From Trypanosoma brucei (lineage: Eukaryota): 64,000 bases of DNA. The notes beneath the pieces are model-generated. The model did not search any database. It was not told where the DNA came from and saw nothing but the letters and a program-made list of their open reading frames with translations. A program made the position numbers and the translations under genes. The stretch is from assembly GCA_000002445.1 (NCBI GenBank), contig CM000208.1, positions 224,001 to 288,000 on the forward strand, written 5' to 3'. This document shows, one piece after another, positions 19,401 through 59,384 of this stretch (position 1 is its first letter; every line of letters starts with the position of its first letter).

Positions 19401-22113
19401 TATCAATTGTGGAACAATGACGGATATCCGTTCACACTCAAATTGTTGCACAATGACTGACCCTGTTGCAATTGTTATGCCTGATGTCATGGAGGATATG
19501 CAACGCCGTCTAACAAAGGAACTTATCAATTGTGGAACAATGACGGATATCCGTTCACACTCAAATTGTTGCACAATGACTGACCCTGTTGCAATTGTTA
19601 TGCCTGATGTCATGGAGGATATGCAACGCCGTCTAACAAAGGAACTTATCAATTGTGGAACAATGACGGATATCCGTTCACACTCAAATTGTTGCACAAT
19701 GACTGACCCTGTTGCAATTGTTATGCCTGATGTTATGGAGGATGTGCAACGGCGGCCATCAAACAGACTTGATGCTTCCACCTCATTAAAGGTGAGCAAA
19801 AACAATGGCGACGTGGCTGTGTACGAAGCTGTTCGCTTTGGTGACGAAAAAGTAGTGGTGGATAGTTGTTCTGTGGCGTCAGTGAGTGATAGTTTCCCGC
19901 GGGATTTGTCAAGTGAGGTGGGTAAACTTCAGTTAAGGGTACTAGATCTCGGGAAAGAGGTTTACATGCTTCAGAAAGAACTTATGGCAAGAGAAGAACA
20001 GCTACAGAAAACGCAGGAAAGGGCAGACTACTACAAAAAGAACTGCGAAACCCTCGAAAACGAACTAGCAAAACTGACAGAGGAGCAAGAAAGAAACGAC
20101 GCAAGGCGTACCGAAGCATACACCATTCTTGAAGAAGAAAGTGAGAACCTCAGGGCTGAAATTGAAGCGCTACAAAAGCAATTAGCAGAGAAGCCACACA
20201 AGGACGCATCCAACTCCGAAGCTCTTTCCAACAAAAATAATACGCGGAAAACGGATAGCGACCACGCTGTTGACGGGAAGGAAAATTTGGGTCTTCATCA
20301 TGTGTCCTCTGTGAGATCACTAGTTCACTTGAGGGAAAATAAAGCAAGGGAACATCTTCGAAGTCGTTCGTTGTCCAATGGCAGGGAGCCCCCTGGTGGT
20401 GTTCTACCTACCGAGCTGAGGACATGGCCGCAGACGGCGCAGCAAAGTGCCCCCGCTGCTTGCACCCATGAAAAAGGTGTGGAACGAAAACTTTCAGAGG
20501 AACTCGATGAGAGCGACGTCGTGAACCACCTCACCGCTCAGGCAACTCCTGAAATGCTGAATCTGAAACCCGAACTATTTGTAAAAAACCCTGCTTCGTT
20601 CGATCGTTTGGTGTCATATCTTACGCGACTCGTAGAAAGGGCTGAAAGGGAACCCGGAGCGCTGAGTTGTGAGGAAAGACACCTTTCTGAGGTATTGAAG
20701 GTGTTCTCCACTTTTTACTGTGGTTATCGTTCCATTGAAAGTGGTACCGGCACTTGTCCCATTGTTGATGGGAATCTGCGTTCACGCGGTGGGAGTTCAC
20801 ATTCACTGCGTCCTAGGGCAAAAGGAATGTGGTCTCCAGAATCCTTGCGGGTTTCCCCTGATGTTGGAAGGAACGTTGACGCTGTGAAGGAAGACCAAAA
20901 TGGTAAGCATCTCGGCCCAGTGCCTTCCGCAAGTACGACATTTCGAACCGGGCGTTCTGAGAGGTGTACTTCCTCCGTTCGTGGCGTGGCGTTGGTGGGT
21001 GGGCTTTTGGCGTCGAGGAGACGCTCGTCAACTGCTCCTTCACCGACAGAGGGGCCGCGGGTCCCTCTGCAGAGGGAAGAAATAGAAGACCTGGAGGGAA
21101 TGTCAGAGTTGGTGTCTTCCATCGAGGACATGCAGTCGCAGTTAGCCTACTTCAATTTTAGCAATGAGCCAGAGCTGAGGGAGTCCATCAAGCAACTGCA
21201 ACAGCACCTCGAGGAACTCAGAGCAGTCCTGGAGAGCCAAATGTCAACGACAAAAATGTCACGATCACCCTCCTATATATCTAGTTTCAGGGGAAGCTGC
21301 TTCTCACAGGGTAACCAACAGGGTCAAGGTGTGCAAGAGGGGAAGCCACCACTAAAAGCAGAAAGCAACGGATGTCAACCTGCGACCGACAGCGCGTGTG
21401 ATACAAATTATTCAAACGGTGGCCAGACAGGCTATTTAGCTGTATGTAATGCTGTAAACACTTGCTGTGGAGGGAGAGGTGCGTTCCATCGTGGTTCGAA
21501 TAGATGCTCCCACTGGGTACCACTGAGAATGCACAGGGCAAATCACGATGAGAACGTCGGGTTGGCGATGAATGAGCCTGGTGGCTCTATTCCTCAAGGA
21601 CGGTCAAATGCTTTTGACGACGGCTCGCAACGCAAGTGTATGGCGCCGAATCGACGCAACCAGAGTGCAGTGATGAGGCGGTTGCTGGACTCTATGCGAT
21701 TTGACCTTGACTCGTATGTGTACACGGCTGCCGAACAGAATGCCGCTAGCGCTGCTTTGCTAGAGGAATCGTCTTCTCTCAAGGAAAGAGAAGCAGATAT
21801 GTGGTTACGTCTCAACCAAACAGAGTTCTGCGAGATGGCAAGGATAGAAATGAGGCTGAAAAGGGATGACTTACGGGAGCTTCAGCATGAAATCCACCGC
21901 ATGCACTTGTTGCACGATAAAGAACTCGTAGAGCGGAAACGGAGGTTGTTGATTTATTCCTATAGAAAATTGCTGGATTTTGCAAAGCGAATGTCCGATA
22001 TTCTTAAGGCACGCGAGTTCTGTACGGGCACGCTGGAAAGCCAGCGGCTGCTGCTATTAGACGAAACGTCAGATTTCACAAAAGATGTAGAAAAGTACAT
22101 TGAGGTTCTGTAG
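13444..22113 (+). CDS. Kinesin-like protein with an N-terminal motor domain and a very long repeat-rich tail (2889 aa as assembled)
   Basis: ATG at 13444. The motor motifs are present: P-loop 'GQTGSGKTYTM', switch I 'SSRSHCLL', switch II 'DLAGSE', and the neck-proximal 'LRFAQKALRIKTRAVVNK'. A single uninterrupted ORF runs through two repeat arrays. Gene length and repeat copy number may be affected by assembly collapse. Confidence 0.75.
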   Translation: MLHKPCVQVVMRFRPNPGVASPFYSTDDTGAPWLTYDERTVRVVERDPPMDRKRVEPNGGPCGDSNDPPVSKALVPAPVTSYTFDAVLSDTSTQRDVHKCVGEPVIGNVLKGYNATIFSYGQTGSGKTYTMLGPYGGLADAFFEDSPFYGERGLVPRVVEELFNRLNTMKSEEYTWRVKTQMFEIYRENIVDLLIEGDQQPQTEYRIREGKNSQGSFCMYVDSLKEVECRTAADFMDILQRGVASRHTRETGTNDRSSRSHCLLCLFVELKHNEDYSMWTESRLNFVDLAGSERVATSQAEGETLKETQYINLSLSLLGNVIHRLAGGNTGHIPYRDTKLTRVLKDSLGGNSLTTLLCHGTTEAATKSQTINTLRFAQKALRIKTRAVVNKPSKTTIKQQQQEFYKEHTKQLEKQIRVLQEIIRSRENTEGENSMCAKCESMSATIASLTKEIERLQKELIAREEQLQQTQETGDYYKKNCETLENELAKLTEEQEANDARHIEAYTILEEESENLRAEIEALQKQLAEKPHKDASNSEALSNKNNTRKNNYNDYKNRATMTDRRTHSNCCTMTDPVTIVMPDVMEDMQRRLTKELINCGTMTDIRSHSNCCTMTDPVAIVMPDVMEDMQRRLTKELINCGTMTDIRSHSNCCTMTDPVAIVMPDVMEDMQRRLTKELINCGTMTDGTISTNRATMTDCRTHSNCCTMTDPVAIVMPDVMEDMQRRLTKELINCGTMTDIRSHSNCCTMTDPVAIVMPDVMEDMQRRLTKELINCGTMTDIRSHSNCCTMTDPVAIVMPDVMEDMQRRLTKELINCGTMTDGTISTNRATMTDRRTHSNCCTMTDPVAIVMPDVMEDMQRRLTKELINCGTMTDIRSHSNCCTMTDPVAIVMPDVMEDMQRRLTKELINCGTMTDGTVSTNCATMTDLRSHSNCCTMTDPVAIVMPDVMEDMQRRLTKELINCGTMTDGTISTNRATMTDLRSHSNCCTMTDPVAIVMPDVMEDMQRRLTKELINCGTMTDGTVSTNCATMTDLRSHSNCCTMTDPVAIVMPDVMEDMQRRLTKELINCGTMTDLRSHSNCCTMTDPVAIVMPDVMEDMQRRLTKELINCGTMTDGTVSTNCATMTDIRSHSNCCTMTDPVAIVMPDVMEDMQRRLTKELINCGTMTDGTVSTNCATMTEVCRQSNSLDRRVSCVSGTAENVSLSGETFCRNTSVNTRECSYIARNTIFASSVVSSFVPVIGEGQFEWWCLDDVYAHALLFSYCNPRDVGINIGLFDDCDDKVLLQSLGVVHRTLGSIRADYDGSVVSVIRRFLVQQRGALAGDGALEGCVPCEALFEVLISAKNALLVEPMVSDSSTVKGEDRVCHGDGEGALDSCVYAHLQVAMTAVFSIARERGGYLSDIFASVKVQKALEAMRQFFTSSNLFSSGSSSVSSTSEANGDSSSFLEDMLRETEVPRFVLGGALQRAAALLKDDVVTKLQRRRLCGGLSLEEALLACYLAEERITALTEIENLREEMVQPVTREALDLIDGAVRAFLKSEESEDFSAEATNHMKSSSFTTALAFLFTYVAAQTATETVGLPQDSTEHVRDALNVVAQTLLRRSVSQTSRFDVAQSNTAIDPESMQQSLRIIMDYAESQGYYPVTCDTSEAGSRSNHHCQYSQQTRRKDTPDIDVTKREALMEKMDSPRTTPRSSPHPRLSSPQEQRPQTSVVVVSQPNVTSHHINNLVHRGRMTNPVAIVMPDVMEDMQRRLTKELINCGTMTDGTISTNRATMTDLRSHSNCCTMTDPVAIVMPDVMEDMQRRLTKELINCGTMTDIRSHSNCCTMTDPVAIVMPDVMEDMQRRLTKELINCGTMTDGTISTNRATMTDLRSHSNCCTMTDPVAIVMPDVMEDMQRRLTKELINCGTMTDIRSHSNCCTMTDPVAIVMPDVMEDMQRRLTKELINCGTMTDIRSHSNCCTMTDPVAIVMPDVMEDMQRRLTKELINCGTMTDIRSHSNCCTMTDPVAIVMPDVMEDMQRRLTKELINCGTMTDIRSHSNCCTMTDPVAIVMPDVMEDMQRRLTKELINCGTMTDIRSHSNCCTMTDPVAIVMPDVMEDVQRRPSNRLDASTSLKVSKNNGDVAVYEAVRFGDEKVVVDSCSVASVSDSFPRDLSSEVGKLQLRVLDLGKEVYMLQKELMAREEQLQKTQERADYYKKNCETLENELAKLTEEQERNDARRTEAYTILEEESENLRAEIEALQKQLAEKPHKDASNSEALSNKNNTRKTDSDHAVDGKENLGLHHVSSVRSLVHLRENKAREHLRSRSLSNGREPPGGVLPTELRTWPQTAQQSAPAACTHEKGVERKLSEELDESDVVNHLTAQATPEMLNLKPELFVKNPASFDRLVSYLTRLVERAEREPGALSCEERHLSEVLKVFSTFYCGYRSIESGTGTCPIVDGNLRSRGGSSHSLRPRAKGMWSPESLRVSPDVGRNVDAVKEDQNGKHLGPVPSASTTFRTGRSERCTSSVRGVALVGGLLASRRRSSTAPSPTEGPRVPLQREEIEDLEGMSELVSSIEDMQSQLAYFNFSNEPELRESIKQLQQHLEELRAVLESQMSTTKMSRSPSYISSFRGSCFSQGNQQGQGVQEGKPPLKAESNGCQPATDSACDTNYSNGGQTGYLAVCNAVNTCCGGRGAFHRGSNRCSHWVPLRMHRANHDENVGLAMNEPGGSIPQGRSNAFDDGSQRKCMAPNRRNQSAVMRRLLDSMRFDLDSYVYTAAEQNAASAALLEESSSLKEREADMWLRLNQTEFCEMARIEMRLKRDDLRELQHEIHRMHLLHDKELVERKRRLLIYSYRKLLDFAKRMSDILKAREFCTGTLESQRLLLLDETSDFTKDVEKYIEVL
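14819..15091 (+). repeat. 283-nt coiled-coil block 'A' (copy 1), directly 5' of repeat array 1; ~96% identical to 19969-20251
   Basis: Encodes 'LQKELIAREEQLQQTQETGDYYKKNCETLENELAKLTEEQEANDARHIEAYTILEEESENLRAEIEALQKQLAEKPHKDASNSEALSNKNNTRK'. Confidence 0.85.
15131..16985 (+). repeat. Kinesin tail repeat array 1: ~13 tandem units of 123 nt (41 aa) or 159 nt (53 aa)
   Basis: The short unit is 'TMTD[I/L/R]RSHSNCCTMTDPVAIVMPDVMEDMQRRLTKELINCG'. The long variant adds 'TMTDGT[I/V]STN[R/C]A'. I counted 7 short and 6 long units from the translation. Synonymous variants (gttatg/gtcatg, caactgt/caattgt, ggtacg/ggcaca/ggaaca) distinguish the copies. Confidence 0.9.
18643..19752 (+). repeat. Kinesin tail repeat array 2: ~9.5 units of the same 123/159-nt repeat
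   Basis: Same unit as array 1: 2 long and ~7 short copies. It is separated from array 1 by ~1.66 kb of unique coding sequence (16986-18642). Confidence 0.9.
19969..20251 (+). repeat. 283-nt coiled-coil block 'A' (copy 2), located 3' of repeat array 2
   Basis: Encodes 'LQKELMAREEQLQKTQERADYYKKNCETLENELAKLTEEQERNDARRTEAYTILEEESENLRAEIEALQKQLAEKPHKDASNSEALSNKNNTRK'. It is in direct orientation relative to copy 1. Confidence 0.85.
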
Positions 22114-47124: not shown

Positions 47125-48365
47125 AAGAAACTTATAGGACTGTTGAAATTCACACGAACACGTCATATGATACGAACTCTACAGTCAAGCGATTTGAATT
47201 GTGCCGCACCTCTCCCGGTGCGTGCCCTCAATATTTCTATTCGTATTCACCTAGCCTTCGTTAAGGGTGAATACGGTAACGTATAATTTTTGCTTTATAA
47301 AGGGAAAATGAAGGGAACTTATTAGTGTGAATAAAGCGGGTGACGGAGGGCTCCCTCAGTGTTTATCCGATTACGATGTGAATGTTATTTGTCTTCCTCA
47401 AGTGAAGTTTGGTGTCGTGATGCAGTTGGAACATGCCATTGGTTGCGCGACATGATGTTTTGCTGCTGTTTCTTTTAAAAGGAAAAAAAACAAAGTATTG
47501 ACAACAACAATAATAATAATAATAGAGTGAATAGATACGCGATGGAAAGGAGGATGGGGGCGGTTGCTGTCATCCCACGCCTAAACACTATGCGCTGTTC
47601 GTCACCTGCATGGTTAACAACCCCGTGACTTATCTCATAACATCCCATTCCGACACAGCATTCGTTCCCGTAAGCGAAGTTTTTTTTCCCCCTTCAATGT
47701 GCTTTTGCGAGGCGATTATCCTTAAGGAAGATCCACGTATGTGTTTATGTATTTTCGTATTCATGAATTTGTGTACTTATATATTCGCACAAGTAAAATG
47801 AAGGAACAACTGTTTTTGTCTCATATTGTTTTCTTTTTTGTTTTGTTTTCAATGGGAGGACGGTTCTCTTCATTGGGGGAAACCCCGTTTGAAATTTTAA
47901 CGGGGAAGCGGTTTAGGGCCAATAAAACCGTCTAATGTTGATGAACTTTCCACACATCAAGAAATTTCGTACCACAATCAGCACCTACCTCTGTTTCTTG
48001 CGTTGCGGTTTGTAAAGTTGCTGGTGACGCAGTAAAGTGGAAATAAATAAATAAACATAAATAAAATTCTGCAGCGCGGAGGGGGAACATATGATTTATT
48101 ATGAAAATGTGTGTTCTCGAATATGAATCTCCCTTTTTATCCTTGTGTGTTTTTGCTATTTTTTCTTTTATTAAGTACCCAACACAGTTGATAGGCTGTT
48201 CGTACCGCTGCGTCCGAAGTAAAAAATTTTTTATTTTTTATTTTTCCTTTGAACAGTAATAACGATAGCAGCAGCTATAGCACCGACCATCACCACTAAT
48301 AATAATATTATTGTTGTTGTTATTGTTGCCGCCCCTTCAAATATTATCGGCATTACGTGTGAATA

Positions 48366-48848
48366 ATGAAAGCCCGTTCCTCCCGCCCAGTGACAACAAT
48401 AACGGTGACATCAGAAGAAACCATTCAAACGCACAATGCACGTGATACCCCACGGACATTTGAGTACAAAACCAAAAGGAATGAACTCATGCGAAGGTTG
48501 GAGGAAATGCGAAATGCGTTGGAAGAAGATAATAATAATAATAATAAAGGATCACGTGTGAAACTTTGTTATTATGATATTACATTTAATTGCAGGGATC
48601 CCGTCGATGTTACTGTTATGAGTGGCTTTCAGAGATTTGAGGGACTCGGGGACACATTAAGCGGACACATGAAATGCGAAGAAGATGACAGGCACAAATT
48701 TGTGGGGTTAATTAAAGAAATTATTCAATTGGATGTGAGTCACCGCGCGAGGAATATGGACAAAAGTGAAATTGCGGTAGTGAGGATTGCAGCAAACTTC
48801 AAGGAACTTAACAGCACCTTCACGAGAAGCGCGGCAACACTCCTTTGA
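48366..48848 (+). CDS. Small hypothetical protein (160 aa); last candidate gene of the plus-strand unit
   Basis: ATG at 48366. It contains an (AAT)n-encoded poly-Asn run. No recognisable domain. Confidence 0.4.
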   Translation: MKARSSRPVTTITVTSEETIQTHNARDTPRTFEYKTKRNELMRRLEEMRNALEEDNNNNNKGSRVKLCYYDITFNCRDPVDVTVMSGFQRFEGLGDTLSGHMKCEEDDRHKFVGLIKEIIQLDVSHRARNMDKSEIAVVRIAANFKELNSTFTRSAATLL

Positions 48849-51800
48849 GTACAGCTGTTGTTTGCCTGCTTGTTTATTTTGTTGTTGTTGTTTTCTTTTT
48901 TCATTTTCCACCTTCAACATTACCAACTCCAATCCTCCACCCGTGTCGTTGCCGCAACCCCTTCAGCATTCAAAATAAAAAAAAAGAAACATATATAAGC
49001 GTGCGTGTGTGTCTGAGTAATTGGATATTGTATTTTTGACATCCGTTCTATTCAAAAAAGGAACCTGACAAAACAAGCGCATACCGTTTTCCTGCATAAT
49101 TTTTTTTTCTATTTATGTACTCATACATGCGCTTACTAACACTAAGCGAGATGAAAGATATCATATCATGTGATGCGGTGCAAGTTTTGGCATTTTTTTT
49201 TTAATTTTTTACTTGCACTTCAATAACAGGACGATAAACGGAAGTGAGGTACGTCAAGACAAGCCAAGTGTGTCGAAGAAATTTATCAGCAGAAGTCGTT
49301 TCGGCATGCATTTACGCATATTTTTATGTTTATGCATATAATATAAAAGCATATTCATATACTCATTGGTTTATTATGAGCGTGGTGTAATGGTGAATGT
49401 CATTCAAACATTTACACTATACACTTCTTTTACGTTTCATTGGTGCACTAACATTAAAAGTGGGAGTGCCCAGATGAAAGATATTTGGCTGAATATTTAT
49501 ACCGCCACGTAGCGCATAAATAAACAGACATATATTTTTATAAATACAAATTTATCGACGCAATGCAACCGGAGCACCACGGTGGCCCCTACGAGTTATA
49601 TGCCCACTTCTCCTCAAAGAAAAAATATTTTATCTTTTTTTTCATTTTATTTTCCTTTTTACACCTGTGCTGGGAAACTAAACGTATGTCCCGTAGTTTT
49701 TTTTTTATGTACGTGTAGGGGAGGACGGTGGGGAAATGGTCGACGTTGGACGCTTCGAATGGGAGCTCAACCATAACACTATTTTTAGCGTGTGCTTTTT
49801 TTTCTTTTTTAGTTCCTTCTACTGTTCGCGGTGCAAAACAAAAGAACAAATCGCGTACCGTCATATCGCTCGTTTTTTTATTATTATTTACTATTTCCCC
49901 CCCCCCCTCCCTTTGTGGCGTTTCGTTGTCCCCAATTGCTTTTTCTTTCCTTTCCTTCATGTTTGTCCATTTACTGACTGTCAGGATCGAAGAACAATTG
50001 AATAATGGTAATAACAAAGGGCAACTGCACACTTCGCCGTCTAATATGAGGAACGGGATTTTTGAATTGTGATGCCTTCAAGTTCCCTCAAGTCCCAAAA
50101 AATATATATATAGTGTTTCTTTTTGTCCCCTTTACTTCAGCGGTCATGCAAAATCAGCTCCTTCATTTGTTACGGTGCTGAAATTTACTTGAAGTTGTCG
50201 TATTTTAGGGAACCCATGCATGAACACTAACAACAATATTAGTGAAACAATTGCTTAACATATGTGTCTCTGCTGTGATTTCCTTCTTGTGAATTACCTA
50301 ACGGTGTTCAAAAAGTCATTTCGTTGATGCAATTTGTTTCCCCTCCCTTGTTTTGTGGTGACGTACTTTTGACACCGCTGTTGTTTTGCTGGGTCTGATG
50401 GAAGGTTCGGGGACGCAGAAACGGAAAAAGCGAAGGGGAGACATACACTTCTTTTATAATAATAATAATGAGGCTGACTTCCCTATCCTTTTGGCCTCCA
50501 TTAAATTCCTTTTCTTTCCGCCTTGAGCTGCTAGAGCTTTTCCCCAAACTGTATAAACTGCAGAGGGCCACTTAGAAGCCGTGCCGTAGCGAGAGGTTCC
50601 GAATTGACAAAAAGAAGAGCGCGTCAGTCCTCCCTCACAGGTTAACCGCTTTCTAAATAGTTGGAAATTACACAAATATCAACACAGTCCCGCTCACTTA
50701 TTCGCAAGCCGACTTTCGCGTCACAACATTGCGGCCCTCATAAGAAAGCCCTCGCTGTCATCCATTGGAAACCCGTCTCGGTTGACTTCAATAATGTATG
50801 AAACAGGAAGAGTAGCCACCGGGGGAAAGAGGCAGAGAGAGGAACGCCGACGCGTTCCGCTATTCTGGGTGTCAGTTCCATCATGCGTTATCATGGTCTC
50901 GCTTCGGTGCGACTTCTTGAACATTCCAGTAGGGGGCTGTGACAGCGACTTGGCTTTACGGGATTGTTGTTCTGCAGCGCTTCTGGGTTCATTTATTCCT
51001 TCAGCTTTCGCACTTGGGGCCATTCGAGGAAATCGGCGAAGGGTTTCTGGCACCTCAGTCTCATTTAAGTGTGGTTTTCTCCCCCCCCCCCCCAATTTCC
51101 TTGCCGAGTGCCCATCGCAGGTGCCCTGTCAACCCAGCATTCCCGAGAAGGTACTTGGGAAACACCGAATAAGTGCGGCTCCCCGCCCCTCTTTTCTTTC
51201 GTTGCTTCGGTGTGGCCCCAGTGTTTTCTGTCGCCCAAAACCACATTCACCATGTCTGCCCACGTTACTGCGAAAGCAGGGCCCTTAAGAGGCAGCCCTC
51301 AATGCATAGGATGCCGTTCAACTCTTTTCCCAACCTCTCCATTGATGCGATGACGCGTGGTGCGGTGCCTTGTACGAATCCCTGTCACCTCGGCGGCGAT
51401 CCCGCGCTCCCCGACGGCAAGTTTCTTCGCCAAAAAAGCGCCGTTCTCCCAGGGAGGAAAATACCCAAACATTCTTTCACGAGCGGATGTACCCTAAACC
51501 GATCCCCACTTACAGGCGAAAAGCCCGTTGTTTACCATTCCCCCCTTTGTTCTCTCCCTCTCTTTGCCCCATTTACTCCACGCACTCCCCACACGTTTCA
51601 AAAACTTCGCGATCCCCGTGCACGACGTCCAATTTCTCTTTCCCTCCTCATTTCCTCTAACCCTCACAATCTTCAACCTCACCAGCTCCACCATATCCTT
51701 AAACCCCCTCGCCTTCTCTGTTGCGTCTTTGGCTTTTGCTTGAACGAAGGCATACACCAATTTCAATCTCCCTGATATATTACAAAGCCCCCACAGGGCC

Positions 51801-54258
51801 CACTTATCTTGAGTTCACCATTATCCGCAGACGTAAATCTACGAAAGGCAAACAGGACGCAACCAAAGTAATGACTTCTTTTGCGGGCATTCTATGTGTA
51901 GTTTCGGAGGTGAAGGGGAAAGCACACCGAAGTGAAAACTTAGCACCGCAGAAGCACTCCCCGACTAGGCTTAAATACGTTAACATGAGAATATAAGATA
52001 ACATAAGTGAAGCAACGAAAAGAACATAAAAGACTAATATACCAGAAAACACCGCCAACCCCAGCGTAGAGCCTCATCCCGAAAAAAACGAGAGTAAAGA
52101 TCGTTATTTCTGATATCGGGGTAAAGATGGCAACTCGCACACGGAGGATCAGCTTAAAGTACATCTTCTAATTGCGCACCGCTGAAAAGACAAATAATTA
52201 CTTGCGTTAAGTGTCAACTAGATCCCCTCGACCCACAGAGGAAATATCCACCGAAACCAAAGACTACATTTCACTGTGAACAACGAAACACGGGCGGTGC
52301 CTCGGATGGCAAAAAGGTTGTCCCTTTTGAGGATGGCTCATTAAAACATGGTGGGCTTTTGGCGCCCTCAAGGGAGACATCCATAACAATTAGGGGAAGC
52401 TGACTACCAACATTCTACATTTATCAAAGCCTACAAACGACCCCCTCCAACATGGGTGCCGGCAGCTCGTCTGCGTCTATTCGTGGTGGAGCGTCCGTTG
52501 TTGAGGAATCGAAAACAGAAGGAACTCCAGAAAGCATGGTAACTCCGCTTGGGCTTTCGGATGAGGAGCAGCCCAAGGTCACATCAACCTACTTCCCCAC
52601 CCTCAAATATAAAACGGCTCTAATGGAGTCATGGAAAAGCCGGAACCGTTGCGCAGAAGAAGGATGTTAAGTTGATAACTGGTGAATGTATGGAACAGGT
52701 ATTTTCAGTTGCCAACAGAAGAGCCCTAATACGATAAAGATCAGTTAAAGGAGAGTTCCCCCCGTCTTATGTGATCTGCTTTAAACACTCTGAGATAACA
52801 ATATGGAAAGCTTTGAGGAACTCTGGAAGCAGTTGCAGTTGGATCCCTTGCGATGCAACACTTGGGAATGACAGGGAGATTTGTACGTTGAAAGCCTTAG
52901 AGGCTATCGTATTCGTGGAGGGTGGTCGTTTGACCGACATTTGGGAGGCGGAGCGCGACAGAGTACCGTGCCACACGTGAGAAAGTTGTTGAAGAGAGGA
53001 GAATATCTCAATGATACCATTGCACATTTTATTTGCCAAATTGCGGCTCAAGCAGTTACTAGGAGGAAGGGGTGCGGAGCCGCGGCGCCCGGAAGAATCA
53101 TGAGGCGCATAAACATCAAGGGGGTGGACCTCATTGTACTAATGAAGAAGGTGTCGAATGAAACAGTTGTGCGGGAATGAGGATATGGGGCTTCAAAACC
53201 ATTCATCATCAGGGGGGGGGAATGTTGGAGGCTGCTAAAGTTGGTATTCGTGCCGTATCTGTTAACCACTTGGAATCTGGTTGTTAGTGGTTACCGCCTT
53301 CCAAAGAGGCAGCCGATGCATACAAGGGCGGGCACATATGCACAGCCCTCTCGCAAAGATACACTCAACACATTCACTCACACATACTTAAACGGACCCG
53401 CAGAATGTCAAGTGCTTTACTCTTTTTGAGCAACCGACTCCGAAAACTTGCCCCTTCGGATAAAAAAAGTGAGTGTTTGTGATGAATAAATACGGAAACA
53501 CTTCCTATCATATGTGGGACACTGAGGTACACGAAACATACGGTGACGGAAAAGGGGGATTCAAAACCCTCAATCATGACACGACTTTACTAAATCCTTC
53601 TATTTCTATCTGTTTCAAGCACTTGGTCATAACTGGAACACTCAGTTCCTCCTTCTGTTGCAGCAATAAAAGAATAGACTTTTGTATACTCCTCTCAGTC
53701 AATCCCTTGTCTCTTTCAATATGCATCAAAACTGTCTCATGAAGGAGTTCCATAACCTCGTCCCGCAATTTGTCAGCGCGTTGAATAAACACGCTTGCAA
53801 TTATATCTTGTAGTTCTCGCAGTTCCGGAAGCCACGGCGTGGTGGAGTGGGCACAACCACAAATAACTAAAAAACTAAGACCCCCTCTAGTGAGATTCAA
53901 CAAAGACAAAAGGTAAAACACGCAAAAAGTCAGTAGTCTACACGGAAAAAAGGAATATTTCAAAACATCCACCAACAAATTACCGCCCCCTCCCTCCCCC
54001 CCCAAAAAAAAGGGGGATCGCAAAAAGAAACTACATTCAAGGACACCAAAAGCACTCGCCGTTGCAAAACATTACTATAGTCACCAGCATGCGCCAGCTG
54101 GGATCCACTACTTTTCCGATTGAAAAAAAAATACTACGAGATCAAAAATAGAAAGCATACTAATCACTGAAGGGAACGACCCTGTCTTATACCACAGGTA
54201 CAGAAGGAAATATATACTCGTCTTCAATGCAATACACATAAATTCGAACAGACTCCGG
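48849..54258. other. Convergent strand-switch region (probable RNA pol II termination zone) between the plus- and minus-strand units. About 5.4 kb with no convincing CDS.
   Basis: Coding strand polarity flips from + (genes to 48848) to - (CBP1 stop at 54259). Only short, compositionally odd ORFs lie in between. There are AT-rich blocks (49050-49560) and homopolymer runs: C12 at 51083-51094, C11 at ~49896, G9 at ~53212, C-rich at 53984-54003. No tRNA cloverleaf was found by eye. Confidence 0.6.
52452..52670 (+). CDS. Speculative 72-aa ORF with an N-myristoylation consensus (MGAGSS...)
   Basis: ATG in a 'ccaacATGG' context. The translation is 'MGAGSSSASIRGGASVVEESKTEGTPESMVTPLGLSDEEQPKVTSTYFPTLKYKTALMESWKSRNRCAEEGC' (Gly2, Ser6). 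It is an isolated short ORF inside the strand-switch region, so it could be chance. Confidence 0.2.
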   Translation: MGAGSSSASIRGGASVVEESKTEGTPESMVTPLGLSDEEQPKVTSTYFPTLKYKTALMESWKSRNRCAEEGC

Positions 54259-55653
54259 TTACGAGAGTGGTTCGTTCCTCATGAATTTCTCAATTATAGT
54301 GGATGCCGCAGCAGGTTGATCCATCGGCACCATGTGACCCGCACCGTACACCTGCACAAAACTGAAGTGCATTGACGATGTGTTTGATGATACGCTACGT
54401 ACAAGACCCGCAGCACTACCATCAATAGATGAGAATGGGGTACCAGGGGCCTTCACAAACTCTTCACTTCCAGACCACTGAAGTGCAAGTGTCCACTCCT
54501 TATTTCCAATCCAGTTGCAGATAAAGTCCATATCACCGGCATAAATCATTACTCGAACTCCATCTTCGAGGAGTCCACTAATTGTGTAGTTAAAGTTCTT
54601 AAACCAGTCAACGGCAAACATCAGGTTCACCTCCATGTTACAAGCTTGCCAAGTCATTGGATCTACACCCAGAGACCTCTGAACATCCTCACGGTTCATA
54701 AAGTTGTCAACTCCCGTTGTGTTGTAACATAATGGCCCATCACATGTTTTGCGGATATCATAAACGTTCAGGCCTGTAGCTGAAAACAGAGCTACCATCG
54801 GACCACAAGTCACACGGGAAAGCTTGCACGACGAGTCCGCGGATGATGAATTATCAGCGTCACAAGCAGAAATAGTACTTTGACAAGCGGGCACCATCGC
54901 CGACATCATCACATGAACAAAGGAAGATACACACGGACTTCCAAGAACTTCCTTGCACCAGTCCCATGCAAGTCTGGGATATGACGCATATTGTGTATAC
55001 GGATCTGTTAAACCGTTTCCTACAGCCAATCCTGCAAGAGGAATGTATATGCCTTCACCCTTTTTATTGCCTTGGTTAATGCGGTAAGCTGTAGCCGGAG
55101 CAAAGTGGCCACCGTAGCTTTCCCCAACAACAAAGAAGTCGTTTTCACGCAGGTCCTCGTGCTCACCAAAGAAGGCCTGTAGAAAGTTGTACATGTCCTC
55201 CGACACCTCCGCTTCATTCTTATCATAATCCGCTTTATCCGCATACGAAAAGCCCACACCGGCAGGTTGATCGATATATATTACATACGCGTGGTTGTTC
55301 CACGAGTACGTATTGTTGTATATGTCACCAGTCGTTTCGTTCATGAGGCAAGGTCCATTCTCTGCAAGTAGCGCAAACATGGAACTACATCCAGGACCGC
55401 CTGTCATCCACAGGAGCACTGGGGCATTGGGATTGCCATCACGTGGTCCAAATGCCCAGTAGAAGTAATGTTTGTCACTCTGCTCTCCAGGAATATCAAA
55501 ATATCCGCTCCATTGATTAACGCCGGGGTCACAAGGCTCCCAACCAGAGCCCGTCGTGCGAAGCGTCGGACGGCGGATAGCCTGAAGGGCGCTTGCACTC
55601 TGCAATAAGAGTAGCAACGAGATAAGAAAAAGCGACGTGTGGCACAGCATCAT
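54259..55653 (-). CDS. CBP1: Serine carboxypeptidase (S10 family; CBP1 / serine carboxypeptidase III), array copy 1
   Basis: 464 aa with an ATG start. Signal peptide 'MMLCHTSLFLISLLLLLQSASA'. Catalytic serine motif 'VVGESYGGHFAPA'. 'WMTGGPGCSS' is conserved. Confidence 0.9.
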   Translation of the reverse strand: MMLCHTSLFLISLLLLLQSASALQAIRRPTLRTTGSGWEPCDPGVNQWSGYFDIPGEQSDKHYFYWAFGPRDGNPNAPVLLWMTGGPGCSSMFALLAENGPCLMNETTGDIYNNTYSWNNHAYVIYIDQPAGVGFSYADKADYDKNEAEVSEDMYNFLQAFFGEHEDLRENDFFVVGESYGGHFAPATAYRINQGNKKGEGIYIPLAGLAVGNGLTDPYTQYASYPRLAWDWCKEVLGSPCVSSFVHVMMSAMVPACQSTISACDADNSSSADSSCKLSRVTCGPMVALFSATGLNVYDIRKTCDGPLCYNTTGVDNFMNREDVQRSLGVDPMTWQACNMEVNLMFAVDWFKNFNYTISGLLEDGVRVMIYAGDMDFICNWIGNKEWTLALQWSGSEEFVKAPGTPFSSIDGSAAGLVRSVSSNTSSMHFSFVQVYGAGHMVPMDQPAAASTIIEKFMRNEPLS

Positions 55654-55974
55654 TTGTATGGGAACTTACTTCTACACAGATGATCGAAAGAAACAAATCA
55701 CAATCGGAGAGGAACGGGAGGCAACGGAATGCCGAATTTGGAAACCATGAGAGAGCACCCAACATAGTCACGAAGTTGCAGTATGCTGACCAACGTCCAA
55801 AAAAACATCCGTACAAAGCATGTCGGAAGCAAAGCATTGAGAAACAGCAAAATATTTAAAGTCTTTAAAAGAATAAAAAACACTCGCAGCCACATACCGT
55901 CATAAGTCAGGGCTTTTTAAAAGCAGTAAAGGAATCAATTCAATGCAATACACATAAATTCGAACAGACTCCGG

Positions 55975-57369
55975 TTACGAGAGTGGTTCGTTCCTCATGA
56001 ATTTCTCAATTATAGTGGATGCCGCAGCAGGTTGATCCATCGGCACCATGTGACCCGCACGGTACACCTGCACAAAACTGAAGTGCATTGACGATGTGTT
56101 TGATGATACACTACGTACAAGACCCGCAGCACTACCATCAATAGATGAGAATGGGGTATCAGGGGCCTTCACAAACTCTTCACTTCCAGACCACTGAAGT
56201 GCAAGTGTCCACTCCTTATTTCCAATCCAGTTGCAGATAAAGTCCATATCACCGGCATAAATCATTACTCGAACTCCATCTTCGAGGAGTCCACTAATTG
56301 TGTAGTTAAAGTTCTTAAACCAGTCAATGTCAAACATCAGGTTCACCTCCATGTTACAAGCTTGCCAAGTCATTGGATCTACACCCAGAGACCTCTGAAC
56401 ATCCTCACGGTTCATAAAGTTGTCAATTCCCGTTGTGTTGTAACATAATGGCCCATCACATGTTTTGCGGATATCATAAACGTTTATACCTGTAAGCAAA
56501 AAATCAGATACAAAGCCGCTACAAGCAGCACCAGCCATCTCACAGTAAGAATCCGCGGATGATGAATTATCAGCGTCACAAGCAGAAATATTACTCTGAC
56601 AAGCGGGCACCATACTGTTCATGGAGTCATATGTCTCGCGGGATATACATGAATAGCCGAGAACTTCCTTGCACCAGTCCCATGCAAGTCTGGGATATGA
56701 CGCATATTGTGTATACGGATCTGTTAAACCGTTTCCTACAGCCAATCCTGCAAGAGGAATGTATATGCCTTCACCCTTTTTATTGCCTTGGTTAATGCGG
56801 TAAGCTGTAGCCGGAGCAAAGTGGCCACCGTAGCTTTCCCCAACAACAAAGAAGTCGTTTTCACGCAGGTCCTCGTGCTCACCAAAGAAGGCCTGTAGAA
56901 AGTTGTACATGTCCTCCGATACCTCCGCTTCATTCTTATCATAATCCGCTTTATCCGCATACGAAAAGCCCACACCGGCAGGTTGATCGATATATATTAC
57001 ATACGCGTGGTTGTTCCACGAGTACGTATTGTTGTATATGTCACCAGTCGTTTCGTTCATAAGGCAAGGTCCATTCTCTGCAAGTAGCGCAAACATGGAA
57101 CTACATCCAGGACCACCTGTCATCCACAGGAGCACTGGGGCATTGGGATTGCCATCACGTGGTCCAAATGCCCAGTAGAAGTAATGTTTGTCACTCTGCT
57201 CTCCAGGAATATCAAAATATCCGCTCCATTGATTAACGCCGGGGTCACAAGGCTCCCAACCAGAGCCCGTCGTGCGAAGCGTCGGACGGCGGATAGCCTG
57301 AAGGGCGCTTGCACTCTGCAATAAGAGTAGCAACGAGATAAGAAAAAGCGACGTGTGGCACAGCATCAT
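55975..57369 (-). CDS. CBP1: Serine carboxypeptidase (S10; CBP1), array copy 2
   Basis: 464 aa. The N-terminal ~235 aa and C-terminal ~100 aa are identical to copy 1; the central segment is divergent. The 'GESYGG' motif is present. Confidence 0.9.
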   Translation of the reverse strand: MMLCHTSLFLISLLLLLQSASALQAIRRPTLRTTGSGWEPCDPGVNQWSGYFDIPGEQSDKHYFYWAFGPRDGNPNAPVLLWMTGGPGCSSMFALLAENGPCLMNETTGDIYNNTYSWNNHAYVIYIDQPAGVGFSYADKADYDKNEAEVSEDMYNFLQAFFGEHEDLRENDFFVVGESYGGHFAPATAYRINQGNKKGEGIYIPLAGLAVGNGLTDPYTQYASYPRLAWDWCKEVLGYSCISRETYDSMNSMVPACQSNISACDADNSSSADSYCEMAGAACSGFVSDFLLTGINVYDIRKTCDGPLCYNTTGIDNFMNREDVQRSLGVDPMTWQACNMEVNLMFDIDWFKNFNYTISGLLEDGVRVMIYAGDMDFICNWIGNKEWTLALQWSGSEEFVKAPDTPFSSIDGSAAGLVRSVSSNTSSMHFSFVQVYRAGHMVPMDQPAAASTIIEKFMRNEPLS

Positions 57370-57983
57370 TTGTATGGGAACTTACTTCTACACAGATGAT
57401 CGAAAGAAACAAATCACAATCGGAGAGGAACGGGAGGCAACGGAATGCCGAATTTGGAAACCATGAGAGAGCACCCAACATAGTCACGAAGTTGCAGTAT
57501 GCTGACCAAACAAGGAATTATCTATTATTTGAGGAGGAGGAGAAACATTAAACGCCAGCGAGCTACGTTAATGCGGCCATTGAAATTGAGAAACTCATCA
57601 TTTCTGGCAGCAGCAGAAGTGAGGTACCAGAAAGTAGAACATTCCCCCTCTATTGTGCAGTGGCATATGCATTCAATTGTAACACAGGCATTGGACCCGC
57701 AAATATGCCACTTCATAGAAGTGCATAGCAAGTCTATACGGCAGTAAAGACACAATGTAAAACATAAAGTCCAGAACCGGTAAGGGCATCCAAGAGACAC
57801 AAGGTCCACAAAAACATCCGTACAAAGCATGTCGGAAGCAAATCATTGAGAAACAGCAAAATATTTAAAGTCTTTAAAAGAATAAAAAACACTCGCAGCC
57901 ACATACCGTCATAAGTCAGGGCTTTTTAAAAGCAGTAAAGGAATCAATTCAATGCAATACACATAAATTCGAACGGACTCCGG

Positions 57984-59384
57984 TTACGAGAGTGGTTCGT
58001 TCCTCATGAATTTCTCAATTATAGTGGATGCCGCAGCAGGTTGATCCATCGGCACCATGTGACCCGCACGGTACACCTGCACAAAACTGAAGTGCATTGA
58101 CGATGTGTTTGATGATACACTACGTACAAGACCCGCAGCACTACCATCAATAGATGAGAATGGGGTATCAGGGGCCTTCACAAACTCTTCACTTCCAGAC
58201 CACTGAAGTGCAAGTGTCCACTCCTTATTTCCAATCCAGTTGCAGATAAAGTCCATATCACCGGCATAAATCATTACTCGAACTCCATCTTCGAGGAGTC
58301 CACTAATTGTGTAGTTAAAGTTCTTAGACCAGTCAATGTTGAACATTTTGCTAGCATCAAAAACGCAAGATTTCCAAACAGTAGGGCGGACACCAAGTGA
58401 CTTCTGAACATTCTCACGGTTCATAAAAGCGGGTATGGCATCAAATTTGTAGCAAAGTGTTGCGTTGCATTTTCTTCGGATATCATAAGTACTTATTTTT
58501 GTCAAAGTGAAAAGATTAGTCACAGGATCGCATGTCACACGAGACAACTTACACAAATACTGCGATGATGAAGCGCCAGCGTTGCACGCGTTGATCACTT
58601 TCTGGCAAGCGGGCACCATACTGTTCATGGAGTCATATGTCTCGCGGGATACACACGGACTTCCAAGAACTTCCTTGCACCAGTCCCATGCAAGTCTGGG
58701 ATATGACGCATATTGTGTATACGGATCTGTTAAACCGTTTCCTACAGCCAATCCTGCAAGAGGAATGTATATGCCTTCACCCTTTTTATTGCCTTGGTTA
58801 ATGCGGTAAGCTGTAGCCGGAGCAAAGTGGCCACCGTAGCTTTCCCCAACAACAAAGAAGTCGTTTTCACGCAGGTCCTCGTGCTCACCAAAGAAGGCCT
58901 GTAGAAAGTTGTACATGTCCTCCGATACCTCCGCTTCATTCTTATCATAATCCGCTTTATCCGCATACGAAAAGCCCACACCGGCAGGTTGATCGATATA
59001 TATTACATACGCGTGGTTGTTCCACGAGTACGTATTGTTGTATATGTCACCAGTCGTTTCGTTCATGAGGCAAGGTCCATTCTCTGCAAGTAGCGCAAAC
59101 ATGGAACTACATCCAGGACCACCTGTCATCCACAGGAGCACTGGGGCATTGGGATTGCCATCACGTGGTCCAAATGCCCAGTAGAAGTAATGTTTGTCAC
59201 TCTGCTCTCCAGGAATATCAAAATATCCGCTCCATTGATTAACGCCGGGGTCACAAGGCTCCCAACCAGAGCCCGTCGTGCGAAGCGCTAGAGATAAACT
59301 ACGATAGACAGTATTTGCTAAAACTACGACCAGGATGCAAGCAGCCAGTAACGATAGCATTACCGGATACGAAATGAGCCGCAT
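57984..59384 (-). CDS. CBP1: Serine carboxypeptidase (S10; CBP1), array copy 3, with a divergent signal peptide and central region
   Basis: 466 aa with an ATG start. The N-terminus 'MRLISYPVMLSLLAACILVVVLA' differs from copies 1 and 2. From 'RTTGSGWEPCDPG' onward it is identical to them up to the central variable block. Confidence 0.9.
   Translation of the reverse strand: MRLISYPVMLSLLAACILVVVLANTVYRSLSLALRTTGSGWEPCDPGVNQWSGYFDIPGEQSDKHYFYWAFGPRDGNPNAPVLLWMTGGPGCSSMFALLAENGPCLMNETTGDIYNNTYSWNNHAYVIYIDQPAGVGFSYADKADYDKNEAEVSEDMYNFLQAFFGEHEDLRENDFFVVGESYGGHFAPATAYRINQGNKKGEGIYIPLAGLAVGNGLTDPYTQYASYPRLAWDWCKEVLGSPCVSRETYDSMNSMVPACQKVINACNAGASSSQYLCKLSRVTCDPVTNLFTLTKISTYDIRRKCNATLCYKFDAIPAFMNRENVQKSLGVRPTVWKSCVFDASKMFNIDWSKNFNYTISGLLEDGVRVMIYAGDMDFICNWIGNKEWTLALQWSGSEEFVKAPDTPFSSIDGSAAGLVRSVSSNTSSMHFSFVQVYRAGHMVPMDQPAAASTIIEKFMRNEPLS

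What the first reader, a model, noticed from the sequence alone, without database searches (positions are those of the whole stretch)
54574..58700. Mosaic central region in three tandem CBP1 serine carboxypeptidases: gene conversion with a diversifying specificity segment
All three copies share identical 5' (mature N-terminal ~190 aa) and 3' (~100 aa) coding sequence. A central block (about aa 236-360; nt ~54574-54960, ~56290-56680, ~58300-58690) differs in patches. Copies 1 and 2 differ in two short sub-blocks. Copy 3 is divergent over ~300 nt yet carries a short stretch matching copy 2 ('catactgttcatggagtcatatgtctcgcggga') fused to one matching copy 1 ('tacacacggacttccaagaac'). Those are clear conversion breakpoints. 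Copy 3 also has a different signal peptide. The variable block probably corresponds to the S10 helical insertion, which shapes substrate specificity. If so, the array may encode three enzymes with distinct specificities despite ~90% overall identity.
Basis: seen in the sequence. Interest (0 to 1): 0.5.

Follow-up and report, generated by a model that had tools for sequence, protein, structure and literature searches.

The report
Trypanosome CBP1 gene array mosaic
Three neighbouring copies of a lysosomal protease gene in the sleeping-sickness parasite are almost identical at both ends, probably because they copy from one another, but each keeps an old, very different middle section that forms the lid over the active site; the array is already known as the activator of a veterinary drug candidate, so this dissects a known locus and is not a discovery.

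Summary
The window is Trypanosoma brucei TREU927 chromosome 10. The three minus-strand genes are the published CBP1 array: TbCBP1A (Tb927.10.1030), TbCBP1B (.1040) and TbCBP1C (.1050).

- **Flanks versus centre.** The flanks are 99.1-100% identical (dS 0.00-0.04). A 350-nt central block is 81% identical between A and B and 61-64% identical to C (dS 1.1-2.0). The edges of the block are sharp.
- **Not an artefact.** The same three central types recur in T. b. gambiense DAL972, and the A type also in Lister 427 and T. b. equiperdum.
- **Location in the protein.** The block maps to the S10 insertion domain (yeast CPY residues 198-314), including the "V-shape helix" over the active site.
- **Best explanation.** These are old paralogues whose flanks are homogenised by gene conversion or unequal crossing-over, while an insertion-domain island escapes.
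- **What is not supported.** Positive selection is not shown (omega 0.2-0.8). The "breakpoint" in copy 3 is better read as private replacement patches in A and B. The CPY S1 pocket residues are invariant, and only C changes two S1' positions.
- **Functional divergence** is plausible from published drug-activation data but unproven.

The locus and its block structure were already published, so interest is low to moderate.

The parts
54259..55653 (-). TbCBP1A (Tb927.10.1030; XP_822361), 464 aa S10 serine carboxypeptidase. Last gene of the array. Its central block is the most ancestral-like.
   Evidence: ORF; Pfam PF00450 E 1.2e-108; identity to P0002/XP_822361. The 1030-specific sequence 'SSFVHVMMSA' is in the Lister 427 1050/1030 chimera of PMC7710103 S3 Fig. 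Departs from the Trypanosoma consensus at 9 of 63 conserved central positions.
55975..57369 (-). TbCBP1B (Tb927.10.1040; XP_822362), 464 aa. This is the copy shown in the literature to activate AN11736.
   Evidence: ORF; Pfam; exact cluster member P0122. It has 7 N-glycosylation sequons, the number PMC11236118 gives for Tb927.10.1040. Add-back data in PMC7710103.
57984..59384 (-). TbCBP1C (Tb927.10.1050; XP_822363), 466 aa. First gene of the array, next to CCT-delta. Has the ancestral-type signal peptide and the most divergent central block.
   Evidence: ORF; 100% identical to P0001. Its signal peptide resembles those of T. congolense P0003 and T. vivax P0010. 20 of 63 consensus departures, including family-invariant N296S and G294K.
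54599..54948 (-). Central variable block of A (aa 239-352; equivalent to CPY 198-314, the insertion domain including the V-shape helix).
   Evidence: domain limits from PMC6609556.
56315..56664 (-). Central variable block of B.
58324..58670 (-). Central variable block of C.
58327..58605 (-). Old divergence island of C (alignment columns 786-1067). 50-69% identical to A/B with sharp edges. pS is 0.65-0.70.
54898..54925 (-). A-private replacement patch a2: 28 nt, 7/28 identical to B/C, same length. Encodes SFVHVMMSA where B/C have RETYDSMNS. Derived according to outgroups.
   Evidence: The inversion test was weak.
56646..56659 (-). B-private patch a1: 7 of 14 nt differ. Encodes YSCIS where A/C and the outgroups have SPCVS.
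56485..56548 (-). B-private patch c: 33/64 identical to A. Encodes CEMAGAACSGFVSDFLL where A has CKLSRVTCGPMVALFSA. Lies on the second long helix of the insertion domain.
54747..54754 (-). Short tract where TREU927 A carries the B-type sequence (4 SNPs in 8 nt), while the A copies of DAL972 and T. equiperdum, and the A-derived part of the Lister 427 chimera, carry another. A candidate recent B-to-A micro-conversion.
59288..59384 (-). C-specific 5' end (signal peptide / N-terminal leader). Homology with A/B begins at 59287.
55566..55793 (-). A/B-type 5' end: alternative signal peptide plus a 140-bp shared upstream element. The second copy is at 57282-57509.
   Evidence: Self-BLAST, 54223-55793 against 55939-57509.
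57796..57983 (-). 188-bp downstream element shared by C and B (second copy 55788-55974). A shares only 36 bp downstream (54223-54258). The C-B spacer holds an extra 286 bp (57510-57795).

Best explanation
This is the known TbCBP1A-C array of lysosomal S10 serine carboxypeptidases.

An ancestral single gene sits next to CCT-delta, as it still does in T. vivax and T. grayi. It was tandemly duplicated long ago, and the copy at the ancestral position (C) kept the original signal peptide.

Since then, interlocus gene conversion and unequal crossing-over have repeatedly homogenised the parts encoding the alpha/beta-hydrolase core, together with the adjacent 3' flank. This step is inferred from sequence patterns.

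A segment of about 280-350 nt encodes most of the insertion (cap) domain. It has escaped homogenisation and keeps old paralogue-specific sequence:
- a long island in C;
- two short patches in B;
- one short patch in A.

Because that domain lies over the active-site cavity, the three enzymes share one catalytic machinery and one S1 pocket but differ in the lid. C also differs at two S1' positions and at two family-invariant residues next to an S1' tyrosine. They also differ in N-glycosylation sites.

A likely consequence is a difference in substrate or prodrug handling among the paralogues. This is inferred, with only indirect published support. The island may persist through selection, through the barrier that sequence divergence poses to recombination, or both.
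For: **Identity of the locus**
- P0001 is 100% identical to T. b. brucei TREU927 XP_822363.
- The gene order CRK kinase, CCT-delta, CBP1 x3 is as expected.
- The 5,125-bp span equals Jackson's array 94 coordinates.
- The paralogue names come from PMC7710103.

**Homogenised flanks against an old centre**
- dS is 0.00-0.04 in the flanks and 1.1-2.0 in the centre for C against A/B (pS 0.65-0.70). Interspecies pS is 0.72-0.91.
- The edges are sharp.
- NJ bootstrap for monophyly of the three T. brucei copies is 100% in both flanks and 2-10% in the centre.

**Ongoing exchange**
- Flank column 1275 is C in all four DAL972 copies but T in TREU927 B and C.
- Flank column 324 is shared by DAL972 A and B but not by TREU927 A.
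- TREU927 A carries a B-type 4-SNP cluster that the DAL972 and T. equiperdum A sequences lack, as does the A-derived part of the Lister 427 chimera.
- Copy number varies: 3 in TREU927, 4 (C-B-B-A, the two B copies identical) in DAL972, and 1 C/A chimera in T. b. equiperdum.
- Single-strand-annealing deletion between the identical blocks was produced experimentally (PMC7710103).

**Ancestral single copy**
- T. vivax and T. grayi have one gene at the syntenic site.
- The C signal peptide matches those of T. congolense and T. vivax.

**Structure**
- The AF2 model has pLDDT 94.2 and pTM 0.91, with helices at 244-264 and 270-291.
- The best PDB matches are CPY 1cpy/1ysc, TM 0.90-0.92.
- aa 239-352 align to CPY 198-314.
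- The CPY insertion domain is 180-317. Its V-shape helix (204-251) lies over the active-site cavity and contributes subsite residues (PMC6609556).

**Function**
- TbCBP1B add-back re-sensitises resistant cells to AN11736.
- Clones retaining only a C/A chimera are 200-300-fold resistant.
- TcoCBP1H but not TcoCBP1A restores sensitivity in T. brucei.
Against: - No dN/dS exceeds 1, so selection for new specificity is not demonstrated.
- All CPY S1 equivalents and seven of nine S1' equivalents are invariant among A, B and C. A and B differ at none of them. The list of CPY subsite residues is from my memory of Endrizzi 1994 and the Breddam-group papers, not from a tool.
- The insertion domain is the fastest-evolving part of the family anyway: 2.02 bits of column entropy against 1.36 and 1.61 in the flanks. 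Neutral divergence is therefore not excluded.
- The age of the split is unresolved: C groups with T. congolense + T. vivax in only 26-35% of bootstraps. Only one of the nine T. congolense paralogues was available.
- The resistance of the C/A chimera could reflect reduced dosage and not specificity.
- The flank-SNP evidence for exchange after strain divergence rests on very few sites.
Confidence: 0.7

Rival explanations
1. Same evolutionary mechanism, but the island is functionally neutral. The cap domain tolerates change. Once a segment has diverged, mismatches block recombination through it, so it persists without any difference in specificity. The array serves mainly gene dosage.
For: - omega is below 1 throughout.
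- The insertion domain is the most variable region family-wide.
- The S1 pocket and most S1' residues are invariant.
- Dosage is the stated general rationale for T. brucei tandem arrays (PMC1855330 abstract).
Against: - The three central types are conserved almost unchanged between TREU927 and DAL972, with open reading frames intact.
- C changes family-invariant N296 and G294 next to an S1' tyrosine, as well as T313D.
- The paralogues behave differently in AN11736 assays.
Confidence: 0.2
2. The copies are recent duplicates. The divergent central segments were imported by ectopic conversion from another S10 locus, by introgression, or from now-lost paralogues. In this view the centre, not the flanks, is what was converted.
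For: - Patch a2 in A has only random-level identity (7/28) at exactly preserved length, which looks like a replacement event and not gradual divergence.
- Clustered multi-nucleotide differences arise between strains.
Against: - No donor exists in the window.
- The protein search returned only the two T. brucei CBP1 clusters and nothing closer to the C centre than 71%.
- C occupies the ancestral position and has the ancestral signal peptide.
- A and C share the protein motif CKLSRVTC with synonymous differences, as expected for old vertical divergence.
Confidence: 0.07
3. The mosaic is an assembly artefact: chimerised or collapsed copies or haplotypes.
For: The flanks are more than 99% identical, which is the situation in which assemblers do err. 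PMC7710103 notes that high conservation complicates read mapping in T. congolense.
Against: - The same A, B and C central types, differing at 2-5 central positions per type, are found in the independent T. b. gambiense DAL972 assembly.
- The A type is in a PCR-sequenced Lister 427 clone and in the T. b. equiperdum assembly.
- The wild-type Lister 427 locus gives a PCR product of about 5.7 kb, matching the predicted 5,696 bp.
Confidence: 0.01
4. Copy C is a decaying or non-catalytic paralogue. Its island reflects relaxed constraint on the way to loss of function, not a new specificity.
For: - C has the longest branch: dN to outgroups is 0.49-0.52 against 0.32-0.33 for A.
- C has lost family-invariant N296 and near-invariant G294 and V342.
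- C has the fewest N-glycosylation sequons.
Against: - The catalytic triad, oxyanion and carboxylate-binding residues and all disulfide cysteines are intact.
- The ORF is intact and nearly identical in DAL972, with 4 nt differences.
- omega is 0.22-0.38, which is still purifying.
Confidence: 0.1

Closest known systems
TbCBP1A-C, Tb927.10.1030-1050 (Giordani et al. 2020, PMC7710103; array 94 of Jackson 2007, PMC1855330)
   Same: It is this locus: same genome, same three genes, same order. [quoted passage not shown] It also reports recombination within the identity blocks.
   Different: I found no published dS contrast, outgroup polarisation, cross-strain comparison or structural mapping of the variable block. 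Jackson's gene-conversion tables cover only arrays of four or more copies, so array 94 appears only in the list.
Yeast carboxypeptidase Y (PDB 1ysc/1cpy), MEROPS family S10
   Same: - Sequence match at E 4.8e-85.
- Model-to-structure TM 0.90-0.92.
- Catalytic Ser/Asp/His are present.
- Eight of the ten disulfide cysteines are conserved in place, and a ninth aligns (the partner of the CPY-specific C193-C207 bond is replaced).
- Same architecture: core plus insertion domain with two long helices.
   Different: - About 35% identity.
- CPY N51 is T, T60 is F and F64 is A in all three copies.
- The CPY-specific C193-C207 partner is replaced; C241 may substitute for it.
- The trypanosome enzymes are multi-copy, with paralogue-specific cap helices.
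Concerted evolution with local divergence in T. brucei tandem arrays (Jackson 2007)
   Same: Paralogues within the species cluster together, different regions of the array give conflicting phylogenies, and homogenisation coexists with divergence (abstract).
   Different: Here the escaping segment coincides with one structural domain of an enzyme, and its synonymous sites are nearly saturated while the flanks are nearly identical.
T. cruzi lysosomal serine carboxypeptidase TcCBP (Parussini et al. 2003, as cited in PMC7710103)
   Same: Orthologous S10 enzyme, 64% identical over the full length. Described as lysosomal and acid-active, with esterase and deamidase activity.
   Different: The three-type mosaic described here is specific to the T. 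brucei group. T. vivax and T. grayi have a single syntenic gene.

Membership tests
Peptidase family S10 (serine carboxypeptidase, Pfam PF00450) | Full-length match to the family profile above the curated threshold | tested here: met
   359.8-369.7 bits against a cut-off of 21.9, profile positions 8-420 of 420, for all three copies.
Peptidase family S10 (serine carboxypeptidase, Pfam PF00450) | [quoted passage not shown] | tested here: met
   S179 (GESYGG), D376 and H440 align with CPY S146, D338 and H397 in A, B and C. PMC7710103 shows that S179A abolishes the function of TbCBP1B.
Peptidase family S10 (serine carboxypeptidase, Pfam PF00450) | Alpha/beta-hydrolase core with a helical insertion domain over the active site | tested here: met
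   AF2 model pLDDT 94.2. Foldseek gives TM 0.92/0.90 and rmsd 2.0-2.3 A to 1cpy/1ysc. Domain definition from PMC6609556.
Peptidase family S10 (serine carboxypeptidase, Pfam PF00450) | C-terminal exopeptidase/esterase activity at acid pH | not testable with these tools
   Literature only: CBP-dependent ester cleavage of AN11736 in cells (PMC7710103). No kinetics were found for the individual paralogues.
Tandem array under concerted evolution (interlocus gene conversion / unequal crossing-over) | Paralogues within a genome are closer to each other than to orthologues, in the homogenised parts | tested here: met
   Flank monophyly of A, B and C has 100% bootstrap. Flank identity is 99.1-100%, against 74-84% (N flank) and 58-79% (C flank) aa identity to other species.
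Tandem array under concerted evolution (interlocus gene conversion / unequal crossing-over) | Segments of one alignment have different histories (dS contrast, discordant trees, sharp boundaries) | tested here: met
   dS is 0.00-0.04 against 1.1-2.0. Central monophyly is 2-10%. Identity steps of 93 to 50 and 69 to 100 per 100 nt at the edges.
Tandem array under concerted evolution (interlocus gene conversion / unequal crossing-over) | Exchange among paralogues after strains diverged (variants shared by paralogues within a strain; copy-number change) | tested here: met
   Flank columns 324 and 1275. The B-type 4-SNP tract in TREU927 A. Arrays of 1, 3 and 4 copies. This rests on few sites, so support is modest.
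Paralogue segment under diversifying (positive) selection for substrate specificity | Excess of non-synonymous over synonymous change in the segment | tested here: not met
   Pairwise Nei-Gojobori omega is 0.22-0.38 (C against A/B), 0.49-0.61 (A against B over the centre) and 0.66-0.96 in the patches. Pairwise averages cannot exclude episodic selection at a few sites.
Paralogue segment under diversifying (positive) selection for substrate specificity | Differences fall on substrate-contact residues | tested here: inconclusive
   The segment lies in the cap over the active site. However, all 7 S1 equivalents are invariant, and only 2 of 9 S1' equivalents change (T313D and A337S, in C only). The subsite list is recalled from memory.
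Paralogue segment under diversifying (positive) selection for substrate specificity | Paralogues differ measurably in substrate use | not testable with these tools
   Indirect only: B add-back restores AN11736 sensitivity, and cells retaining only a C/A chimera stay resistant.

The most novel reading that the evidence does not exclude
The paralogue-specific patches on the two cap helices decide whether a CBP1 enzyme can activate valine-ester benzoxaborole prodrugs. The two B-private patches are the main candidates. Natural array variants would then differ in intrinsic drug sensitivity. In particular, T. b. equiperdum appears to carry only a C/A chimera of the same architecture as the laboratory-made resistant clones, with an additional Y180C change beside the catalytic serine. 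It would be predicted to be innately poorly sensitive. The conserved-flank, divergent-lid architecture would then be a built-in way to keep several lysosomal specificities while recombination maintains the catalytic core.
Probability: 0.25. Interest if true: 0.5.

Novelty: already known. Interest (0 to 1): 0.25.

Why it matters
CBP1 is the activating enzyme for the veterinary benzoxaborole candidate AN11736 and related prodrugs. Loss or rearrangement of this array is the main resistance route (PMC7710103). CBP1 is also implicated in suramin sensitivity (PMC5176092).

The long identical flanks make deletion by recombination easy, and the products are chimeras whose central block decides which enzyme survives. 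Knowing which segment distinguishes the paralogues therefore helps to predict which natural or selected rearrangements confer resistance. It also gives a clean set of domain swaps to test.

As evolutionary biology it is a textbook-quality but unsurprising example of partial concerted evolution.

Tried and rejected
- **Micro-inversion origin of the private patches.** The reverse complement of the B/C version shares the 8-mer TGTTCATG with A patch a2 (shuffle p 0.012-0.027). The other two patches show nothing (p 0.16 and 0.99). This is not significant after multiple testing.
- **Donor sequences for the patches or the C island elsewhere in the window.** Only self-hits and short chance matches were found.
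- **Exact look-up of the three TREU927 proteins in public assemblies.** They are not on record. The DAL972 and T. equiperdum proteins were used instead.
- **T. congolense paralogues.** Only one sequence (P0003) is in the protein collection. The S2 Fig alignment of PMC7710103 is not held as text. I could not test whether the C type is orthologous to a T. congolense paralogue, or whether T. congolense shows the same mosaic.
- **Calibrating the age of the split with interspecies dS.** Synonymous sites are saturated between species (pS 0.72-0.91). The only conclusion possible is "old, slightly below saturation".
- **Citable list of CPY subsite residues.** Literature searches failed. PMC6609556 gave the domain limits and the V-shape helix, but the residue list remains from memory.
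- **Assembly artefact.** Considered and rejected; see the rival explanations.

Full report
**What is there**

Positions 54259-59384 of the window hold three intact minus-strand ORFs of 464, 464 and 466 aa. Each is a full-length Pfam Peptidase_S10 match (E 1e-107 to 1e-110). The best solved relative is yeast carboxypeptidase Y (E 4.8e-85).

The third ORF is 100% identical to XP_822363 of Trypanosoma brucei brucei TREU927. The other two are XP_822361 and XP_822362. Upstream in the direction of transcription lie a CCT/TCP-1 subunit gene and a protein-kinase gene. The 5,125-bp span equals the coordinates of [quoted passage not shown] in Jackson 2007.

Giordani et al. 2020 (PMC7710103) name the genes TbCBP1A, B and C, for Tb927.10.1030.1040 and .1050. 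Their S3 Fig shows that the MRLISYPV leader is specific to 1050 and the SSFVHVMMSA stretch to 1030. In window terms:
- copy 1 (54259-55653) is A;
- copy 2 (55975-57369) is B;
- copy 3 (57984-59384) is C.

**Check of the observation**

The description holds.
- Beyond the signal peptide, the 5' 616 nt are 99.5-99.8% identical in all pairs.
- The 3' 340 nt are 99.1-100% identical.
- The central 350 columns are 81% identical for A/B and 61-64% against C.
- A and B differ almost only in columns 726-771 and 837-900. Between and after these they match at 62/65 and 167/170 positions.
- C is divergent over columns 786-1067, with step-like edges: 93 to 50 identical per 100 nt at the 5' edge, and 69 to 100 at the 3' edge.

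The run structure of A-like and B-like sites in C is non-random (p = 4.5e-5).

The repeat unit extends beyond the coding sequence. A and B share 140 bp upstream and an alternative signal peptide. B and C share about 187 bp downstream. A shares only 36 bp downstream. The C-B spacer has 286 extra bases.

**Not an artefact**

T. b. gambiense DAL972, an independent genome, has the array C-B-B-A at the syntenic site. Its central blocks differ from the TREU927 A, B and C types at only 2 to 5 nucleotide positions, and the two B copies are identical to each other.

The A-type block also occurs in a PCR-sequenced Lister 427 clone. It occurs again in T. b. equiperdum, where a single gene joins the C leader to the A body with no gap in the assembly. 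The three central haplotypes are therefore real and stable across the T. brucei group.

**How the pattern arose**

Synonymous divergence is 0.00-0.04 in the flanks. In the centre it is 1.1-2.0 between C and A/B (pS 0.65-0.70), close to the saturated interspecies values of 0.72-0.91. A contrast of that size at silent sites cannot come from selection on the protein. The flanks and the centre have different ages.

Neighbour-joining bootstraps agree. The three T. brucei copies are monophyletic in 100% of replicates for either flank but in only 2-10% for the centre.

T. vivax and T. grayi have a single CBP1 at the same place. The leader of C resembles those of T. congolense and T. vivax. C therefore sits at the ancestral position, and A and B acquired a new 5' end at duplication.

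There are signs of continuing exchange:
- flank variants shared by paralogues within one strain but not between orthologues (columns 324 and 1275);
- a cluster of 4 SNPs in 8 nt at 54747-54754, where TREU927 A carries the B sequence while the DAL972 and T. equiperdum A sequences and the A-derived part of the Lister 427 chimera carry another;
- copy numbers of 1, 3 and 4;
- experimentally, single-strand-annealing deletions within the identity blocks.

The best-supported mechanism is therefore old tandem paralogues whose core-encoding parts evolve in concert, with an island that escapes.

**The "breakpoint" in copy 3**

Alignment with ten other Trypanosoma sequences gives a different reading:
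- 'xPCVS' and 'xxxYxxMxSMVP' are the ancestral states, and C has both;
- B alone has YSCIS, a change of 7 of 14 nt;
- A alone has SFVHVMMSA, in which 28 nt are replaced by 28 nt of only random-level identity (7/28).

The simpler reading is that C carries the common, homogenised sequence here, while A and B each hold a private replacement patch.

A third patch, on the second cap helix, is private to B (CEMAGAACSG...). There A and C keep CKLSRVTC, as T. vivax keeps CKLSRYSC, but with synonymous differences between A and C.

The origin of the private patches is unexplained. A micro-inversion is weakly suggested for the A patch only (p about 0.01-0.03 before correction). No donor lies in the window.

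**Where the block sits in the enzyme**

An AlphaFold model of A is confident (pLDDT 94.2) and superposes on CPY with TM 0.90-0.92. By sequence alignment, aa 239-352 correspond to CPY 198-314.

According to PMC6609556, this is inside the insertion domain (180-317). That domain includes the "V-shape helix" (204-251), two long helices lying over the active-site cavity that contribute subsite residues. The model's helices 244-264 and 270-291 are these two helices. The A/B patches lie at the start of the first helix and along the second.

The details temper the functional claim:
- The catalytic triad, the carboxylate-binding residues and all seven CPY S1-pocket equivalents are invariant. Eight of the ten CPY disulfide cysteines are conserved in place, and a ninth aligns.
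- Of nine S1' equivalents, only two change, and only in C (T313D, A337S). The subsite list is from my memory of the CPY literature.
- C also replaces family-invariant N296 and near-invariant G294, two and four residues before the S1' tyrosine Y298.
- N-glycosylation sequons inside the block number 2 in A, 3 in B and 1 in C.
- A is the most conservative copy, with 9 departures at 63 conserved central positions. B has 16 and C has 20.

**Selection**

Pairwise omega is 0.22-0.38 for C against A/B and below 1 in every sub-block. The block is also the fastest-evolving part of the family in general. "Diversifying" selection is thus not shown.

The near-identity of each type between subspecies points to long-standing, maintained differences and not to continuing diversification.

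**Function**

I found no paper that compares the three enzymes biochemically. Indirect evidence for functional differences comes from PMC7710103:
- re-expressing B restores AN11736 sensitivity, and this depends on S179;
- CRISPR clones that keep only a C/A chimera, carrying the A central block, are 200-300-fold resistant;
- among T. congolense paralogues, H but not A restores sensitivity in T. brucei.

Dosage effects are not excluded.

**Comparison with what is known, and novelty**

The locus, its three paralogues, their near-identical blocks and paralogue-unique regions, and their recombination are all published. The general phenomenon of concerted evolution with local divergence in T. brucei tandem arrays is also published. 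That survey's conversion analysis omitted this three-copy array.

- the silent-site contrast;
- the outgroup polarisation of the patches;
- the cross-strain stability of the three types;
- the mapping to the V-shape helix;
- the natural C/A chimera in T. b. equiperdum.

I rate the finding as already known, with modest incremental value (interest 0.25).

Noticed in passing
L002 10001-11404 (T. b. equiperdum, GCA_003543875.1 CM010681.1): The syntenic locus holds one CBP1 gene, a C-leader/A-body chimera. It has the same architecture as the AN11736-resistant CRISPR clones of PMC7710103. It also has Y180C (GESCGG) at a residue invariant in 75 homologues, beside the catalytic serine. This may predict low innate sensitivity to the prodrug, or it may be an assembly or sequencing error.
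   Followed up: partly
L001 5974-13108 (T. b. gambiense DAL972, FN554973.1): The array has four copies, C-B-B-A, and the two B genes are 100% identical, indicating a recent unequal crossover. In the A and B copies the first ATG is ATA, so translation would start at the second Met codon.
   Followed up: partly
window 54223-54258, 55654-55974, 57370-57983: The three genes have different 3' flanks. A shares only 36 bp downstream with the others. B and C share about 187 bp. The C-B spacer has an extra 286 bp (57510-57795). Because trypanosome mRNA levels depend on 3' UTRs, the paralogues may be expressed differently.
   Followed up: no
window 54259-59384 (protein positions 260, 268, 311 in A/B; 307 in C): All N-glycosylation sequon differences among the copies lie in the central block: A has 6 sites in total, B has 7 and C has 5. 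CBP1B is reported to carry very large poly-LacNAc glycans (PMC11236118), so the block may also alter glycan display.
   Followed up: partly
alignment column 292 of the eight-gene CBP1 alignment; TREU927 codon F93, about 12 nt 5' of window 55364 in A, 57080 in B and 59086 in C: F93 is the equivalent of CPY Thr60, an S1' residue. It is Leu in the T. b. equiperdum gene and in the Lister 427 chimera, but Phe in all TREU927 and DAL972 copies. This is a strain polymorphism at a putative subsite position.
   Followed up: no
window 15112-16982 and 18643-19751 (inside the + strand ORF 13444-22113, 2889 aa): Two long arrays of in-frame 123/159-bp tandem repeats (41/53 aa units; 82-98% matches) lie within a very large ORF.
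   Followed up: no
window about 47125-54258: Large + strand ORFs end at 47124 and the minus-strand genes begin at 54259, so this is a convergent strand-switch region of about 7 kb. It contains a low-GC stretch (0.38 at 48001-50000). ARAGORN found no tRNA gene anywhere in the window.
   Followed up: no
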